64,000 nt of DNA from Alphaproteobacteria bacterium (GTDB lineage: Bacteria; Pseudomonadota; Alphaproteobacteria; Rs-D84), in the NCBI GenBank assembly GCA_009784275.1, contig WRCA01000001.1, forward strand, positions 129,783 through 193,782. Reading direction: 5' to 3'. The first letter of the stretch is position 1. Each line of letters starts with the position of its first letter. A program made the position numbers and the translations under genes. This document shows, piece after piece, positions 13,004 through 18,851 of this stretch. Under the pieces are notes generated by a model, which did no database searches, had not been told where the DNA came from, and worked only from the letters and a program-made list of their open reading frames with translations.

Positions 13004-13029
13004 AAAAACCGCCTAAAGGCGGTTTTTTT
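13003..13029. terminator. bidirectional rho-independent terminator AAAAAACCGCCTAAAGGCGGTTTTTTT
   Basis: GC stem, 4 nt loop, flanking A and T tracts. Sits between convergent rpsU and the M23 peptidase gene. Confidence 0.65.
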
Positions 13030-14320
13030 ACATCGGAATTGATAATCTTGGATTTTTTTCCAGCGCAATCATCGCTTCATCAATTTTCTCGCGCACCTTC
13101 AAGAAGCTTTCTTTCTGCAACGCAGTCAAGTCATCTATACGCGGGAATGTCACAGTCATCGGATTCACGTGTACCCCGTTCTTTATAATTTCATAATGCA
13201 AGTGCGGCCCCGTCGATAACCCCGTGCTGCCCACATATCCGATAATTTGCCCCTGGGCCACCGTTGTGCCTACATTTACGCCCGCTTGAAATTTCGACAT
13301 GTGCGCATAAACCGTTTCGAATCCATTCGCATGTCGAATTCTTACGAAATTACCATATCCTTTATCAAAGGCGCGCTTTACGACCCGACCCGATCCTGCA
13401 GCCGGAATTTTGGTTCCCGATGCCGCACGGAAGTCTACACCCTTGTGCGCGCGGGTAAAGCCCAGCACCGGATGCTTTCTGTTTGGATTAAATTTGCTGG
13501 ATATACTGGCGCCGTCAATCGGGGTTCTTTTTAATGATTTAATTGCACCCTTGCCTTCTTCATCATAATACCCGAACTTTCCATCTGTTTTCTCATACCG
13601 ATACATTTTCAGTTTTCCACGACGATCAAGATGAGTATCGAAAGAAATCGCAATTACTCGTCCGCCATCTATGACTTTGCCATCTATCATGTTTTCTTCA
13701 TACAGCACTGCGAATTCTTGCCCTGGCTGAATATCACGTTCAAAGTCAATTTCAAACGCCAAGTAATTAATAATGTCATAGACTGTGCCAATCGGAATAT
13801 TAGATTCTATTGCCGTTTGGCTGAAAGTTCCGCCCGATGATATTTTTCCAGCGCGGCGAACTATGCGGGTATCTTTTTCAATGCTAACGATTTCCGCACC
13901 CCATTGTCCATCGGTGCAAGTCAGTTCTATCCGTTTCCATGCTCCGCTTGATAAAGTTATTTTTTCCACCGGCGCATCATTAGTTTTCTGTTGCAAAACC
14001 AACACATCCGAATTCGCGCGCAAGCCTGAAACCCCACAATCTTTCTTCAATAGCGCCGCGATAGTATTTATATCATTGCCAGATATATTATGGTCCGACA
14101 AAATCTTGGATAGAGTATCGCCCGCTTCTACTTGGATATGAGTTTCCACCGGCGGGCTGGAAATAATGCGACGGCCAGGCTTTGTTGCAAATAGAGCGGC
14201 CGCAACAACTATCAATATTCCTACCAAAATAATAGCTATGCGCGTCAGATTACGAGCTTTAAATATATTTTTTGCTTTTGCCATGGGGTGGATTATACTG
14301 TTTTTATGGATATGAATCAA
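13028..14320 (-). CDS. M23 family peptidoglycan metalloendopeptidase with LysM-like domain
   Basis: HKGVDF...GTKIPAAGSGRV...YGNFVRIRH...STGPHLHYEI (HxxxD and HxH motifs). N-terminal TM. LysM-like VEAGDTLSKIL. Confidence 0.8.
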   Translation of the reverse strand: MIHIHKNSIIHPMAKAKNIFKARNLTRIAIILVGILIVVAAALFATKPGRRIISSPPVETHIQVEAGDTLSKILSDHNISGNDINTIAALLKKDCGVSGLRANSDVLVLQQKTNDAPVEKITLSSGAWKRIELTCTDGQWGAEIVSIEKDTRIVRRAGKISSGGTFSQTAIESNIPIGTVYDIINYLAFEIDFERDIQPGQEFAVLYEENMIDGKVIDGGRVIAISFDTHLDRRGKLKMYRYEKTDGKFGYYDEEGKGAIKSLKRTPIDGASISSKFNPNRKHPVLGFTRAHKGVDFRAASGTKIPAAGSGRVVKRAFDKGYGNFVRIRHANGFETVYAHMSKFQAGVNVGTTVAQGQIIGYVGSTGLSTGPHLHYEIIKNGVHVNPMTVTFPRIDDLTALQKESFLKVREKIDEAMIALEKNPRLSIPM

Positions 14321-15070
14321 GCATTTGAGATATTAAGAAAAGCTGGTGGCGCACAAGCGGCACGGATTATCCTGCAAAATAAGAAAAAAATCAGCAGATT
14401 AAGGGTCTTTTTAATGGCGCGACAACTGCGACGCAGCATGCCGGTTGCAAAGATCATTGGCGAGAAATGGTTTTATGGATTAAAATTTCACACGACACGG
14501 CACACACTGGACCCGCGACCGGACAGCGAGACGCTGGTAGAGGCGGTGCTGAAGAATAAAAAGCAAAAAATAATTTTAGATATGGGTACCGGGACAGGTT
14601 GTTTAATTTGTTCCATTGTAAAAAACATGCCAGGGACGACAGGAGTTGGGATTGATAAATCATTTGCTGCTTGTCGCATTGCACGCAAGAATGTGAAAGA
14701 TTTGGGATTACAAGATAAAATTAAAATTATCAGAAGTGATTTTACCAATCATAAATCATCAATTTCCGGCTTCGACATCATTATTTCCAATCCGCCATAT
14801 ATTGCAACCAGTGATAATCGTGTGGATGCCGGCGCTTTGCATGATCCAAAGATTGCTTTGTTTGCCGGGGCGGATGGATTGGATGCTTATCGCGCAATTG
14901 CAAAGAATGCAAAAAATTGGCTGCGTGCTGGCGGCAAGATTTTCCTCGAAATCGGTGCGGGACAAGGCAACGCTGTGCGTAAGATTTTCACCGGAGCTGG
15001 CTGGCGTTTTGTCGCTTCTTATAAAGATTTGGGCAGCATTGAACGAGTTTTGGAATTTAGTCTTGTATAG
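14288..15070 (+). CDS. prmC: release factor glutamine N5-methyltransferase PrmC/HemK
   Basis: DMGTGTGC SAM motif and IISNPPYI catalytic NPPY. Confidence 0.8.
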   Translation: MDYTVFMDMNQAFEILRKAGGAQAARIILQNKKKISRLRVFLMARQLRRSMPVAKIIGEKWFYGLKFHTTRHTLDPRPDSETLVEAVLKNKKQKIILDMGTGTGCLICSIVKNMPGTTGVGIDKSFAACRIARKNVKDLGLQDKIKIIRSDFTNHKSSISGFDIIISNPPYIATSDNRVDAGALHDPKIALFAGADGLDAYRAIAKNAKNWLRAGGKIFLEIGAGQGNAVRKIFTGAGWRFVASYKDLGSIERVLEFSLV

Positions 15071-15868: not shown

Positions 15869-15875
15869 GTTCGCC

Positions 15876-15890
15876 GGGCATATGGCGAAT
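15876..15890 (+). repeat. fragment matching the 5' acceptor/D-stem start of tRNA-Leu(UAG) (GGGCATATGGCG)
   Basis: Compared by eye with 16002-16016. Confidence 0.6.
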
Positions 15891-15960
15891 CCGAGTATAT
15901 GAAATCGAGCAAAGCGAAGATTGAATAACTACGAAGATACGCGCAGACGCGAAGCGGCAA

Positions 15961-15990
15961 GCGAAATTGGCAGACGCGCGGCGCGGATTG
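15961..15990 (+). repeat. fragment matching the D-arm region of tRNA-Leu(UAG) (GCGAAATTGGCAGACGCGC)
   Basis: 18 of 19 identity to 16010-16028, then divergence. Confidence 0.6.
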
Positions 15991-16001
15991 CATCTTTTTA
16001 C

Positions 16002-16086
<85 letters not shown>

Positions 16087-16201
16087 CGAATTTAGTGTAT
16101 GTGAACCTTGTAACCTCACAATGCGCGTCAACCGCTCGCGGCTTACACCGCCGCTCTCGGGACGCTTATACGCTCGGTTTCAAGTCCCTCTATGCCCACC
16201 A
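16087..16201 (+). repeat. tRNA-Leu tail module: about 90 nt conserved spacer ending in an imperfect 26 nt copy of the tRNA 3' end (GGTTTCAAGTCCCTCTATGCCCACCA)
   Basis: The 3' 26 nt have one mismatch against 16061-16086. The spacer is homologous to 47145-47232. Confidence 0.75.
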
Positions 16202-16253
16202 TTTATGACAAATTTATATTTTACATACTCCCTATTATTTTTTGACAAAATAC

Positions 16254-16281
16254 TTGACAAATTAATATATTACTCTATAAT
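16254..16281 (+). promoter_or_regulatory. near-consensus sigma70 promoter TTGACA - 16 nt - TATAAT, only 6 nt before the ATG at 16288 (possible leaderless transcript)
   Basis: -35 at 16254-16259, -10 at 16276-16281. A second TTGACA lies at 16242-16247. Confidence 0.5.
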
Positions 16282-16287
16282 ATTGGT

Positions 16288-16635
16288 ATGAAAATAAAGC
16301 AAAATTATTCAATATCAAACCATTCGCCATATAGTTGTGGGCCGGGAAAGACAGCTTTTAAATGGATAAAAGCCGTGGTTATTGTCGGCGGGTTGACGCT
16401 TGCGGGACTGGGTATAAATAAATTCGTAGAAGGATATATAGAAAATCGTGACGGCACAGGCATGACCCATGGAAAAGCGACCACGATTCTTATCTCCGAA
16501 GGTAAGCCCGAGCATCTGATGTATTCAGACCCAAGGTTTTTCGGGCCAACTGATAAAATGTTTTTCGGCGGTGGTATGACGATCGCTGGAGTGCTCATAA
16601 CTTTGATTGGAATTATAGTTCAAAGAAAAAGGTAA
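16288..16635 (+). CDS. small membrane protein (two TM helices), hypothetical
   Basis: 115 aa ORF with hydrophobic AVVIVGGLTLAGLGI and MTIAGVLITLIGIIV. Confidence 0.35.
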   Translation: MKIKQNYSISNHSPYSCGPGKTAFKWIKAVVIVGGLTLAGLGINKFVEGYIENRDGTGMTHGKATTILISEGKPEHLMYSDPRFFGPTDKMFFGGGMTIAGVLITLIGIIVQRKR

Positions 16636-17184
16636 TTGAAAATGAAAGACGGCTTGAAACAATTTTTCATGGGGACACTGGGCGGACGAGTACTGCGCGA
16701 TCAAGCTATTGTGTTTTCCTTATTGTTTATACTGGGCAGCGGATGGTATTTGCTGTATGAGAACGATAATAACGGTTGGCGAGATAGAGATTTGAAGAAA
16801 TTACCCAAAAGGTCCGAAGTATTAAAGCAAACCGAACAGCCGCCGGAAACTTTGCCTCCTTATATTGCAAGTCCATATTGGCGTTCGCTAAAGGAAGCAT
16901 ACACATTCAAAAATGCTGATATAGAATTGTTTGACTACAAAGACAAAAAAATTCTTAAAAAGAATCCCGAATTTGTGACGGCTGTCCATACTTGCGTACC
17001 TAGTGCTGGGCGGATATATGAAGAAGAGGAGAAAAGTTTTCATCTTCCCTTTATAATCATGAAGGGTTTCGCTACTTATGGTGCGCATATTTACACATTG
17101 TTGCTCAGCCTGGGGCTGTTTGATGAAAGAAAAAGAAAAGCTTTTCTAAATAATATCAATTCGGCGTTTAGAGCTTTGCGGTAG
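16636..17184 (+). CDS. hypothetical protein with N-terminal TM, coupled to the previous gene (stop and start adjacent)
   Basis: 182 aa ORF, no recognisable motif. Confidence 0.35.
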   Translation: MKMKDGLKQFFMGTLGGRVLRDQAIVFSLLFILGSGWYLLYENDNNGWRDRDLKKLPKRSEVLKQTEQPPETLPPYIASPYWRSLKEAYTFKNADIELFDYKDKKILKKNPEFVTAVHTCVPSAGRIYEEEEKSFHLPFIIMKGFATYGAHIYTLLLSLGLFDERKRKAFLNNINSAFRALR

Positions 17185-17267
17185 ATTTCCCATCATTTAA
17201 CTTTTTTTGTAACCTTTTTGTTCTTGCTTACGTATATATGGGTGAGCAACCAAAAAGGAAAGCAAAA

Positions 17268-17591
17268 ATGAAGAAACTTCTCTCTATCTCTCTGACTACC
17301 ATTATTATCGCTGCGGGGGCGACCGCCGCCGATGCTGCGGTGTACACTAACAAGACTGCACCGCATAACAAGCCTGGCGCCGTTGTTCAACGTGGCCCCT
17401 CGTTCGCCCGTCCTGCGCATAACCCACGCGCAAAGACTGTTGTTGTTCAGGCCGCCCCTTGCCAGCAACATCACAACTATAAATACAATTCTGGCTGTGG
17501 TTGTAACCATAATCATGGCGTCAACGATACGGTGGCATTGGTGACTTTGGGGCTGGTCGGCGCTGGGGTAATTTACGCCCTGGCGAAATAA
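17268..17591 (+). CDS. small His/Cys-rich exported protein with C-terminal TM anchor (possible metal-binding)
   Basis: MKKLLSISLTTIIIAAGATAADA signal peptide. CQQHHNYKYNSGCGCNHNHG cluster. C-terminal LVTLGLVGAGVIYAL. AAAAGGAAAG ribosome binding site. Confidence 0.4.
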   Translation: MKKLLSISLTTIIIAAGATAADAAVYTNKTAPHNKPGAVVQRGPSFARPAHNPRAKTVVVQAAPCQQHHNYKYNSGCGCNHNHGVNDTVALVTLGLVGAGVIYALAK

Positions 17592-17651
17592 TCATGGCGC
17601 GGTTACGGCCGCGCTTGATTTAATCATTCACTGATTTATAATAGAGCCAAC

Positions 17652-18203
17652 ATGGAATCATTCGACGATATATCATTGATGCAGGAAATTCAGAACGGAA
17701 ATCGCGGCGCGTTTTCTATTCTGGTAAATCGTCATTCGCAATATTTCTTCGCGATTGCTTATCGTTTTGCGAACAATCGCGATACGGCCGAAGATATTTT
17801 GCAAAACGCTTTTTTGAAATTATGGGAACGACCGTATAAGTTCGACCCAGACGGCGCGGCCGGATTCAAGACTTGGTTTGCAAAGGTTGTTATAAATTTA
17901 TGCCTTGATGACCGGCGGGCACGAAAGCCTATTGTTGTTCTGGACGATTCAGAAATTCCAGATGATCGTGATTCGGCGGCAGACATAATAGACAGGCAGA
18001 GAAAATATATCGCGTTGAACAATGCTATCAAGAAACTGCCCGCCGCCCAACAGACCGCGATTAATCTTGGCTGCATAGAAGACCTTAAATACGAAGATGT
18101 TGGAAAGATTATGAAAAAATCGACCAGCGCGGTGAAAGTATTAATCATGCGCGCAAAAGAACAATTAAAAATCTCAATGAAGGAGTACGGATATGCAGCT
18201 TGA
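17652..18203 (+). CDS. ECF (sigma-70 family group 4) RNA polymerase sigma factor
   Basis: Region 2 (AEDILQNAFLKLW) and region 4 HTH (LKYEDVGKIMKKSTSAVKVLIMRAK). Confidence 0.8.
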   Translation: MESFDDISLMQEIQNGNRGAFSILVNRHSQYFFAIAYRFANNRDTAEDILQNAFLKLWERPYKFDPDGAAGFKTWFAKVVINLCLDDRRARKPIVVLDDSEIPDDRDSAADIIDRQRKYIALNNAIKKLPAAQQTAINLGCIEDLKYEDVGKIMKKSTSAVKVLIMRAKEQLKISMKEYGYAA

Positions 18204-18447
18204 ACGCGAAAATATTCCAAAATTATCCGCAGATTTTTGCGACCGTGTAGTGGCGGCTTCGCGAAATGTACCCCAACGTCGGCCGATTTCATTGCGCGTC
18301 TTGTGGGAGCGCGCCGCAAATATCCTGCCAATTCGCCCGAACTGGGCAATCGCAATGATGGCCGCGGTATTTGTAATCGGCTTTGTCGCGGGCTTCGAAA
18401 CATACACCATTGACAATGTAGTCGAACTTATGGAGGTAGTATTATGA
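18193..18447 (+). CDS. putative anti-sigma factor (84 aa, single TM), overlaps the sigma gene stop
   Basis: Position and size typical of ECF anti-sigma partners. TM WAIAMMAAVFVIGFVAGF. Confidence 0.4.
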   Translation: MQLERENIPKLSADFCDRVVAASRNVPQRRPISLRVLWERAANILPIRPNWAIAMMAAVFVIGFVAGFETYTIDNVVELMEVVL

Positions 18448-18824
18448 CCAAAAATATCAAAATCATTCTAATCGTATCATTACTGTTGAACACGCTGATG
18501 ATCGGAATGTTCGCTGGACACTGGATGCAGAGCCATCGATATCGGCCGATTGCGGAACTAAATGATATTCGACCGAAACAGCGTAATGCGATTGCAGCTG
18601 AACGTACTCGCTTGTTCGTACTGATGAAGGAAGGTGCGCCGAATGCAGAAATCGAAGCGCAGTTGGAAAAATTAAACGATATTCAATGCAAATTCAATCG
18701 GGATTTTATGATTTCGATGAATGAAAAACTACAAAAAATGTCTCCAGAAGAACGCGCCCGAATGATTGATAAGATGATGCAGCAACGCGGTCCACGCGGT
18801 AAAGGCCAGAAAATGCGCCATTAA
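18444..18824 (+). CDS. periplasmic CpxP/Spy/ZraP-like (Metal_resist / LTxxQ family) protein
   Basis: Signal/TM then helical domain with LNDIRPKQRNAI and LNDIQCKF repeats and a Gln/Arg/Gly-rich tail. Classic third gene of ECF envelope-stress modules. Confidence 0.5.
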   Translation: MTKNIKIILIVSLLLNTLMIGMFAGHWMQSHRYRPIAELNDIRPKQRNAIAAERTRLFVLMKEGAPNAEIEAQLEKLNDIQCKFNRDFMISMNEKLQKMSPEERARMIDKMMQQRGPRGKGQKMRH

Positions 18825-18851
18825 AAAACGCCCGATTGGGCGCTTTTTTTT
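18824..18851. terminator. bidirectional terminator AAAAAACGCCCGATTGGGCGCTTTTTTTT
   Basis: Hairpin plus T-tract. It overlaps the stop codon of the convergent minus-strand gene. Confidence 0.65.

What the first reader, a model, noticed from the sequence alone, without database searches (positions are those of the whole stretch)
16242..17591. Near-consensus promoter and three small membrane/exported proteins just downstream of the tRNA-Leu scar
TTGACA-16-TATAAT lies 6 nt before the ATG at 16288, so the transcript may be leaderless. It drives a 115 aa two-TM protein and a coupled 182 aa protein, followed by a His/Cys-rich exported 108 aa protein (CQQHHNYKYNSGCGCNHNHG). All are orphans by eye and lie between the tRNA-tail module and an ECF sigma module. 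They are candidate cargo remnants of the lost element, or an ECF-regulated metal-handling unit.
Basis: partly seen in the sequence, partly recalled or inferred. Interest (0 to 1): 0.5.

Follow-up and report, generated by a model that had tools for sequence, protein, structure and literature searches.

The report
Variable tRNA-side gene pair plus ECF-controlled gene
The three small genes are real but are not one unit: a strain-variable, probably leaderless two-gene membrane-protein cassette sits beside tRNA-Leu, and a separate conserved Cys/His-rich envelope gene has a stress-sigma-type promoter and belongs with the neighbouring ECF sigma module; none of the proteins has a known function, and the arrangement is ordinary.

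Summary
A perfect TTGACA-16-TATAAT ends 6 nt before the ATG at 16288, and the three ORFs exist as described.

They form two units. Unit A (about 16202-17188) is the consensus promoter plus ORF1 (115 aa, 2 TM) and the coupled ORF2 (180 aa). In a related metagenomic contig (L004), the stretch between the same tRNA-Leu and the same ORF3 promoter holds an unrelated 172-aa gene. Both versions are AT-richer than their backbone, so Unit A is swappable accessory DNA. Its "leaderless" geometry is common here: 7 of 55 ORFs have a -10-like hexamer 6-7 nt before the ATG.

Unit B is a conserved GTAACC-N16-CGTA (ECF-type) promoter, an SD, ORF3 (107 aa; signal peptide, Cys/His cluster, C-terminal TM) and a hairpin. 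The sigma/anti-sigma/126-aa operon follows. ORF3 is under strong purifying selection (pN 0.075, pS 0.62).

ORF1 and ORF3 each have only one or two homologues among billions of proteins, and ORF2 has one remote homologue. No family, phage, plasmid or defence match was found, so function remains inferred. This is a new member of known kinds, of modest interest.

The parts
16002..16086 (+). Intact tRNA-Leu(UAG); left anchor of the variable slot
   Evidence: ARAGORN and Rfam tRNA at 56.5 bits. The same tRNA 3' end, with 1 mismatch, opens contig L004.
16176..16201 (+). Direct copy of the tRNA-Leu 3' tail (25/26), 89 nt after the gene; a scar of an earlier integration or deletion
   Evidence: No second copy is present in L004.
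16202..17188 (+). Strain-variable segment (promoter + ORF1 + ORF2), 38.7% GC against 44.4% for the window
   Evidence: The alignment with L004 loses homology after the tRNA tail and regains it at window ~17189.
16254..16281 (+). Consensus sigma-70 promoter TTGACA-16-TATAAT; the predicted start site is the A of ATG 16288
   Evidence: 12/12 match and sequence.
16242..16271 (+). Overlapping second promoter TTGACA-18-TATATT (11/12); it would give a leader of ~10 nt without an SD
   Evidence: The TTGACAAA boxes are repeated at 16242 and 16254, with ATGACAAA at 16205.
16288..16635 (+). ORF1, 115 aa, two-TM inner-membrane protein with a conserved ~45-aa loop (RDGTGMT, HLMYSDPRF.GPTDKM)
   Evidence: pN 0.19 / pS 0.72 overall, and the 23 N-terminal codons are constrained too.
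16642..17184 (+). ORF2, 180 aa, coupled to ORF1 (SD AAAGG inside the end of ORF1); weak N-terminal anchor and C-terminal amphipathic/hydrophobic helix
   Evidence: The only homologue is P0006.
17209..17234 (+). ECF-type promoter GTAACC-N16-CGTA upstream of ORF3
   Evidence: It is the only match in the 64 kb. Both boxes are identical in L004, where only 3 spacer bases differ. It matches the Caulobacter sigmaF site GTAACC-N16-CGAA (PMC3511200).
17268..17591 (+). ORF3, 107 aa: signal peptide-like N-terminus, basic Pro-rich linker, Cys3/His cluster next to a C-terminal TM; SD AGGA at 17256-17259
   Evidence: pN 0.075 / pS 0.62.
17597..17614 (+). GC hairpin followed by UUGAUUU: terminator of ORF3 (possibly leaky)
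   Evidence: -18.7 kcal/mol, z -3.8. L004 has a different-sequence hairpin at the same place.
17615..17642 (+). Sigma-70-type promoter TTGATT-16-TATAAT of the sigma operon, ending 9 nt before the ATG at 17652
   Evidence: It is conserved in L004.
17652..18824 (+). ECF sigma (183 aa), short single-TM anti-sigma candidate (84 aa) and N-terminally anchored helical periplasmic protein (126 aa), in overlapping reading frames
   Evidence: Sigma70_r2/r4_2 and TIGR02937 matches. Hydropathy is, the AF2 model of the 126-aa protein, and a terminator-like site at 18829.

Best explanation
The interval holds two independent transcription units of different evolutionary status.

Unit A. This is a ~1-kb accessory cassette in a replaceable slot immediately 3' of tRNA-Leu(UAG). 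A consensus sigma-70 promoter starts transcription at, or within a few nt of, the A of ATG 16288. ORF1 is therefore translated from a leaderless mRNA. ORF2 is translated by SD-dependent coupling 6 nt after the ORF1 stop. Both products are small inner-membrane proteins that are probably made constitutively. Their biochemical role is unknown. My best guess is an accessory envelope function brought in by horizontal transfer, such as exclusion, immunity or stress tolerance.

Unit B. This belongs to the conserved ECF module. An ECF-type promoter (GTAACC-N16-CGTA) drives an SD-led monocistronic ORF3 mRNA that ends at a hairpin. ORF3 is exported and stays tethered by its C-terminal TM, which places a Cys/His cluster at the outer face of the inner membrane. 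There it most likely binds a metal or reacts with a thiol oxidant. It would act as an output of, or co-sensor for, the adjacent sigma / 84-aa anti-sigma / 126-aa periplasmic protein set.

Shown: the anatomy, the conservation pattern, the selection and the motif matches. Inferred: the transcription start sites, sigma dependence, topology, and metal or redox chemistry.
For: Promoter and geometry.

The ATG at 16288 is the true start. The N-terminal residues MKIKQNYS align with MQIKENYS in P0003. The first 23 aligned codons give pN 0.19 against a saturated pS.

Leaderless class in this genome:
- A -10-like hexamer (at least 5/6) ends 6-7 nt before the ATG in 7 of 55 ORFs. The background is 0.73 per offset at offsets 11-40.
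- Examples are listed.
- The first 50 nt of the putative mRNA have an MFE of 0 kcal/mol.
- Leaderless mRNAs are known to be frequent in Alphaproteobacteria (375 in Caulobacter, PMC4117421).

Variable slot:
- L004 reads tRNA-Leu tail, unrelated 172-aa gene, then homology resuming at window 17189 and continuing through ORF3 into the sigma gene.
- Cargo GC is 38.7% against 44.4% here, and 32.0% against 45.1% in L004.
- Codon-usage likelihood of ORF1 and ORF2 falls in the lowest 1-2% of length-matched segments.
- The ORF1 homologue sits in a different gene context (L003).
- The ORF2 homologue lies 1.3 kb from a tRNA-Gln, beside HicAB and RelE-type pairs (L053).

Unit B:
- The motif is unique in the window and identical in L004.
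- The upstream 78 nt are 90% identical, against 73% third-position identity in the sigma gene.
- ORF3 dN/dS is about 0.06.
- Hairpins of different sequence occupy the same position in both genomes.
- The sigmaF consensus is GTAACC-N16-CGAA.
- All Cys and His residues of the cluster are invariant between the two ORF3 sequences.
Against: - Only one short contig (L004, 1687 bp) documents the alternative cargo. The direction of change is not known, and neither an integrase nor a clean flanking repeat bounds the cassette. The right edge resembles the tail-copy end (CCCATCATTTA against CCCACCATTTA), but the same 11-mer occurs in two coding sites elsewhere.
- No hairpin separates ORF2 from ORF3. Read-through could therefore make a longer transcript, and the units may not be fully independent in this strain.
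- The ECF motif alone would occur somewhere in 64 kb in about 10-20% of shuffles.
- The sigma gene has a sigma-70-like promoter of its own rather than the autoregulated ECF promoter that is usual.
- The overlapping 11/12 promoter could give a ~10-nt leader instead of none. One gene caller chose GTG 16375 as the ORF1 start (P0002).
- Nothing ties the Cys/His motif to metal experimentally. ORF3 also has atypical codon use.
Confidence: 0.6

Rival explanations
1. One operon. The consensus promoter drives ORF1-ORF2-ORF3, and perhaps the sigma operon, as a single ECF-linked metal-handling unit.
For: No terminator-like structure lies between ORF2 and ORF3. All genes are on the same strand with short gaps. 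All three show atypical codon use.
Against: L004 keeps the ORF3 promoter, ORF3 and the sigma gene but lacks ORF1-ORF2. ORF3 has its own conserved promoter and SD. The homologues of ORF1 and ORF2 are not next to sigma genes or to each other.
Confidence: 0.12
2. ORF1-ORF2 are ancestral core genes of this lineage. On this view L004 shows a secondary replacement in another species, so nothing here is 'cargo'.
For: A single comparison cannot set the direction of change. The GC of ORF1 and ORF2 (42%, 40%) lies within the range of window genes, at the 22nd and 10th percentiles. No mobility gene is nearby.
Against: - The codon likelihood of both genes is in the lowest 1-2%.
- There are no orthologues anywhere except near-identical strains.
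- The closest ORF1 relative is in a 49%-GC contig with other neighbours.
- The slot adjoins a tRNA gene with a duplicated tail.
Confidence: 0.15
3. ORF1-ORF2 is a two-gene membrane toxin/immunity or phage-exclusion cassette, kept on by a strong constitutive promoter.
For: The evidence is circumstantial. The proteins are small membrane proteins in a variable tRNA-side islet. The ORF2 homologue lies beside two toxin-antitoxin pairs. The promoter is a consensus one.
Against: There are no PADLOC, PHROG, phage, plasmid or viral-contig matches. The two families do not co-occur elsewhere.
Confidence: 0.1
4. ORF1 is not leaderless. Either transcription starts from the upstream 11/12 promoter and gives a short SD-less leader, or translation starts at GTG 16375.
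For: An overlapping promoter, TTGACA-18-TATATT, ends at 16271. One gene caller produced the 86-aa GTG version.
Against: The N-terminal 29 residues are conserved at protein level and carry an in-frame indel. The perfect promoter puts +1 on the A of the ATG, and the same 6-7-nt geometry recurs in the window.
Confidence: 0.2

Closest known systems
Leaderless mRNAs of Alphaproteobacteria (Caulobacter crescentus 375, about 9.6% of CDSs; Sinorhizobium meliloti 171; PMC4117421)
   Same: The -10 hexamer ends 6-7 nt before an AUG, there is no SD, and the 5' end is unstructured. The arrangement recurs in about 13% of ORFs in the window.
   Different: No transcript data exist for this uncultured organism. 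Here the leaderless cistron is followed by an SD-coupled second cistron.
tRNA-gene-associated genomic islets or integration hot spots (general knowledge: tyrosine-recombinase elements that duplicate the tRNA 3' end)
   Same: The segment lies directly 3' of a tRNA gene with a duplicated 26-nt tail. Its content differs between relatives, and it has lower GC and atypical codon use.
   Different: No integrase is present. The cassette lies outside the tail repeat pair, is only ~1 kb long, and has at best an 11-nt degenerate repeat at its right edge.
Caulobacter crescentus sigmaF (ECF) promoters, GTAACC-N16-CGAA, heavy-metal stress regulon (PMC3511200)
   Same: The -35 box and spacer length are identical, and the -10 differs by one base (CGTA against CGAA). 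The promoter sits next to an ECF sigma gene in an alphaproteobacterium.
   Different: The anti-sigma here is an 84-aa single-TM protein. By my recollection, sigmaF's partner NrsF is a multi-pass protein. The sigma is not shown to belong to the sigmaF group (best NCBIfam match is PRK05602, below its cut-off). ORF3 has no counterpart in that regulon.
CnrYXH of Cupriavidus metallidurans (short anti-sigma CnrY, periplasmic metal sensor CnrX, ECF sigma CnrH; PDB 2y39, 4cxf)
   Same: The module has three parts: an ECF sigma, a very short single-TM anti-sigma candidate, and an N-terminally anchored all-helical periplasmic protein. CnrXs appears among the top Foldseek matches, and CnrH among the PDB sequence matches.

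Membership tests
Leaderless mRNA | [quoted passage not shown] | not testable with these tools
   This needs 5' RACE or dRNA-seq. Geometry predicts +1 = 16288.
Leaderless mRNA | AUG start codon, no SD, -10 hexamer about 6-7 nt upstream, unstructured 5' end | tested here: met
   ATG start, TATAAT ending 6 nt upstream, and no SD. MFE is 0 kcal/mol for nt 1-50. A window-wide peak occurs at 6-7 nt. The N-terminus is conserved.
Integrase-mediated tRNA-associated genomic island | Segment bounded by direct repeats of the tRNA 3' end | tested here: not met
   The tail copy (16176-16201) lies upstream of the cassette. The right edge has only CCCATCATTTA, an 11-mer that also occurs in two unrelated coding sites.
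Integrase-mediated tRNA-associated genomic island | Integrase or recombinase gene inside or next to the segment | tested here: not met
   No integrase domain is found among the genes called within 10 kb on either side, or in ORF1-3.
Integrase-mediated tRNA-associated genomic island | Presence/absence or content polymorphism between relatives, and atypical composition | tested here: met
   L004 carries a different gene in the slot. This rests on one relative only.
ECF sigma-dependent promoter / regulon member (ORF3) | -35 with an AAC core (GTAACC) and -10 CGT at a 16-17 nt spacing, suitably placed upstream of the gene | tested here: met
   GTAACC-N16-CGTA at 17209-17234, 33 nt before the ATG. 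It is conserved in L004.
ECF sigma-dependent promoter / regulon member (ORF3) | Transcription depends on the cognate ECF sigma | not testable with these tools
   This needs genetics or in-vitro transcription.
CnrYXH-type periplasmic metal-sensing ECF module | Periplasmic sensor homologous to CnrX, with its metal ligands | tested here: inconclusive
Any curated protein family (Pfam, NCBIfam, PHROGs, PADLOC) for ORF1, ORF2, ORF3 | Profile match above the family threshold | tested here: not met
   There are no matches, apart from a sub-threshold PapR hit on the ORF3 signal peptide.

The most novel reading that the evidence does not exclude
ORF3 may be a previously undescribed fourth component of an ECF signalling module. 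On this reading it is a sigma-induced, C-terminally anchored periplasmic Cys/His peptide. It would work with a sensor-less 84-aa anti-sigma and a helical 126-aa periplasmic protein to sense metal or thiol stress and feed back on sigma activity. The neighbouring tRNA-side cassette, with its outward-reading consensus promoter and no terminator, would then rewire ORF3 expression in this strain.
Probability: 0.12. Interest if true: 0.5.

Novelty: new member of a known kind. Interest (0 to 1): 0.27.

Why it matters
If correct, the interval gives a compact example of a replaceable gene slot beside a tRNA gene in a barely sampled alphaproteobacterial lineage. It also adds evidence that leaderless initiation is routine in that lineage. 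It further offers a small, easily testable candidate for an ECF-controlled periplasmic Cys/His protein. None of this changes current understanding. The main practical value is to correct the annotation: two units rather than one, the ATG at 16288 as the ORF1 start, and an ECF-type promoter for ORF3. It also flags three lineage-restricted protein families for later work.

Tried and rejected
- **Homology searches.** The word-indexed search of 5.8 billion proteins gave only self and near-self hits. The exceptions were P0003 (ORF1, 66% identity) and P0005 (ORF3, 85% identity). A full HMMER scan of 1.84 billion representatives with ORF2 gave one remote hit, P0006.
- **Family libraries.** Pfam, NCBIfam, PHROGs and PADLOC gave nothing.
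- **Other sequence collections.** PDB sequence search gave nothing for ORF3 or the 126-aa protein. tblastn against plasmids and phages gave nothing. Viral contig scans gave nothing.
- **Genome scan with the sigma.** It returned only ECF paralogues of at most 31% identity from unrelated phyla, and no relatives of this lineage.
- **JGI metagenome scans.** The ORF3 alignment gave nothing. A degenerate HLMYSDPRF pattern for ORF1 gave two chance matches.
- **Cluster look-up.** The clusters of the sigma module proteins and ORF3 hold only this MAG's sequences.
- **Rejected: homology of the ORF1 promoter region with the L004 promoter region.** The local alignment was matched or beaten by 38 of 500 shuffles.
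- **Rejected: CCCAYCATTTA as a real att core.** It also occurs in unrelated coding sequence.
- **Rejected: the ORFs as spurious.** This is ruled out by dN/dS.
- **Rejected: Rfam elements in the region.** Only the tRNA was found.
Full report
**What is there.** The window comes from an uncultured alphaproteobacterium. NCBI names the MAG 'Alphaproteobacteria bacterium' with locus tags FWE50_00750/00755, and the same sequence is in ENA ERZ27257304. The sequence confirms every element of the observation:
- tRNA-Leu(UAG) lies at 16002-16086, with a 26-nt copy of its 3' tail at 16176-16201 (25/26).
- A perfect TTGACA (16254) -16- TATAAT (16276-16281) follows, and the ATG at 16288 is 6 nt further on with no Shine-Dalgarno sequence.
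- A second, overlapping 11/12 promoter (TTGACA 16242 -18- TATATT) is also present.
- ORF1 (16288-16635, 115 aa) has two hydrophobic spans.
- ORF2 (16642-17184, 180 aa) starts 6 nt after the ORF1 stop and has AAAGG upstream.
- ORF3 (17268-17591, 107 aa) has a signal-peptide-like N-terminus, the cluster CQQHHNYKYNSGCGCNHNHG and a C-terminal TM.

**The genes are real.**
- ORF1 has a 66-69% identical homologue (P0003) on a Logan contig, L003. Codon comparison gives pN 0.19 against pS 0.72. The 23 aligned codons upstream of the alternative GTG start are equally constrained, and the two sequences differ there by an in-frame indel. The ATG at 16288 is therefore the start, not the GTG at 16375 that one gene caller chose.
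- ORF3 has an 85-87% identical homologue (P0005, contig L004) with pN 0.075 and pS 0.62.
- ORF2 matched only itself in the word-indexed search. In a full HMMER scan of 1.84 billion representatives it found one remote relative, P0006 (297 aa, E 3.5e-8; 33% identity over 160 residues in pairwise BLASTP).
- None of the three matches any Pfam, NCBIfam, PHROG or PADLOC model, or any plasmid or phage record, and ORF3 matches no PDB sequence.

**The three genes are not one unit.** The key comparison is contig L004 (1687 bp, same study, a related species; sigma pS 0.47).
- L004 opens with the 3' end of the same tRNA-Leu, with one mismatch.
- It continues with an unrelated 172-aa gene behind its own TTGACA-16-TACTAT promoter.
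- It regains homology with the window at position ~17189, five bases after the ORF2 stop codon.
- From there it runs through the ORF3 upstream region, ORF3, a hairpin, the sigma promoter and the sigma gene.

So the stretch between the tRNA and ~17188 is interchangeable, whereas ORF3 travels with the ECF module. Supporting observations:
- Both versions of the interchangeable stretch are AT-richer than their backbone: 38.7% against 44.4% here, and 32.0% against 45.1% in L004.
- ORF1 and ORF2 fall in the lowest 1-2% of length-matched gene segments for codon-usage likelihood. Their plain GC, however, is within the normal range.
- The ORF1 homologue in L003 is followed by an unrelated 98-aa membrane protein and a CxxCxxCC protein.
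- The ORF2 homologue in L053 lies 1.3 kb from a tRNA-Gln, next to a nucleoside-deoxyribosyltransferase-like gene and two toxin-antitoxin pairs.

The two families are thus independent, rare and found in accessory surroundings.

**Limits of the 'lost element' reading.**
- The cassette lies downstream of the tail repeat pair, not between the two copies.
- No integrase is called within 10 kb either side.
- The only repeat-like feature at the right edge is an 11-mer (CCCATCATTTA against CCCACCATTTA at the tail copy), and it also occurs inside two unrelated coding regions.
- Apparent similarity of the two promoter regions is not significant.
- Only one relative is available. Scans of GTDB genomes, JGI metagenomes and viral contigs found nothing closer, and the 90% clusters contain only this MAG.

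The segment is best described as a replaceable tRNA-side islet of unknown transfer mechanism.

**Leaderless start.** The geometry puts +1 on the A of the ATG. I tested whether this is special.
- Among 55 non-overlapping ORFs of at least 100 aa in the window, a -10-like hexamer (at least 5/6, with A2 and T6) ends 6 or 7 nt before the ATG in 7 cases.
- The background is 22 cases spread over offsets 11-40, or 0.73 per offset.
- Examples include the M23 peptidase, the adjacent methyltransferase and, at 9 nt, the ECF sigma gene itself. Other genes have clear GGAG/AGGA sites.
- The first 50 nt of the putative ORF1 mRNA are predicted to be completely unstructured (MFE 0).
- Leaderless mRNAs are well documented in Alphaproteobacteria (375 in Caulobacter, 171 in S. 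meliloti; PMC4117421).

The leaderless reading is therefore well supported by inference, but it is a routine feature of this genome rather than a peculiarity of this gene. The overlapping 11/12 promoter leaves a short-leader alternative open.

**ORF3 and the ECF module.**
- Upstream of ORF3 lies GTAACC-N16-CGTA (17209-17234), then about 20 nt, then AGGA, then 8 nt and the ATG.
- The motif occurs once in the 64 kb. Taken alone it would appear somewhere in the window in 9-22% of shuffles.
- It sits in an 80-nt intergenic region next to an ECF sigma gene and is identical in L004 apart from three spacer bases.
- The upstream 78 nt are 90% identical, against 73% identity at third codon positions of the sigma gene.
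- It matches the experimentally defined Caulobacter sigmaF site GTAACC-N16-CGAA (PMC3511200). From memory, it also resembles the Bacillus sigmaX/sigmaW type TGTAAC/TGAAAC-N16-17-CGTA.
- No acceptable sigma-70 promoter is present there.
- After ORF3, a GC hairpin (-18.7 kcal/mol, z -3.8) followed by UUGAUUU is replaced in L004 by a different hairpin at the same place. This fits a terminator.
- The sigma operon then has its own conserved TTGATT-16-TATAAT promoter.
- The sigma is a generic ECF.
- The 84-aa protein has one TM and almost no periplasmic part.
- The 126-aa protein is N-terminally anchored and helical. Its resemblance to CnrX, ZraP or CpxP cannot be told apart from any other helical bundle.

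The metal-sensing label for the module is therefore unproven. The metal or redox role of ORF3 rests only on its invariant Cys/His cluster.

**Mechanism proposed.**
- Unit A is constitutive. Transcription from a consensus promoter gives a leaderless ORF1 and an SD-coupled ORF2, both inserted in the inner membrane, and their role is unknown.
- Unit B is inducible. When released from the 84-aa anti-sigma, the ECF sigma transcribes ORF3. The ORF3 product is exported, stays anchored by its C-terminal helix, and presents a Cys/His site at the membrane surface.
- Because no terminator separates ORF2 from ORF3, the cassette's promoter may add constitutive ORF3 transcription in this strain. That is an inference, not a finding.

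**Verdict.** The region is a new member of known kinds: a tRNA-side variable islet, a leaderless alphaproteobacterial gene, and an ECF-promoter-linked small envelope protein. The proteins themselves are lineage-restricted orphans. Interest is modest.

Noticed in passing
window 14250-14310: The M23 peptidase gene (13028-14284, minus strand) and the PrmC-like methyltransferase gene (14306-15070, plus strand) are divergent, and their ATGs are only 22 nt apart. Each has a -10-like hexamer 6-7 nt upstream (TATAAT and TATACT). Each promoter must therefore lie inside the other gene's first codons: a back-to-back pair of apparently leaderless genes.
   Followed up: partly
window 17615-17654: The ECF sigma gene has no SD, and its TTGATT-16-TATAAT promoter ends 9 nt before the ATG. 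This is conserved in L004. The -35 box overlaps the U-tract of the ORF3 terminator hairpin.
   Followed up: partly
window 15875-15979: Fragments of the 5' half of tRNA-Leu lie upstream of the intact gene: 15875-15887 (13/13) and 15961-15979 (18/19). This suggests a decayed or rearranged second copy on the 5' side, in addition to the 3' tail copy. The 95-aa ORF called across the tRNA (15921-16208) is spurious.
   Followed up: no
window 15880-15890 and 16322-16332: An 11-nt perfect inverted repeat links the upstream tRNA fragment and ORF1. The ORF1 arm falls in the six-codon insertion (NHSPYS) that ORF1 has relative to its homologue P0003. About 0.3 such repeats are expected by chance in this region.
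   Followed up: no
window 16195, 17189, 54679, 57418: CCCAYCATTTA occurs four times against 0.14 expected. Two copies flank the variable cassette, and two lie inside unrelated coding regions.
   Followed up: partly
L053 1-4217: The only remote homologue of ORF2 (P0006) lies downstream of a tRNA-Gln. It sits between a nucleoside 2-deoxyribosyltransferase-like gene and HicAB plus RelE/HI1420-type toxin-antitoxin pairs.
   Followed up: partly
window 17193-17516 (minus strand): A 107-aa antisense ORF mirrors ORF3 and is also open in L004 (693-1016, minus strand). The plus-strand frame has the SD, the signal peptide and a dN/dS of about 0.06, so the antisense frame is most likely a by-product.
   Followed up: partly
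L002, L005, L055, L056, L057: In other samples that carry the same strain, the assemblies break inside tRNA-Leu (~16007-16058), inside ORF2 (~16866) and at ~17238. This is compatible with shared tRNA k-mers, low coverage or population heterogeneity at this locus.
   Followed up: no
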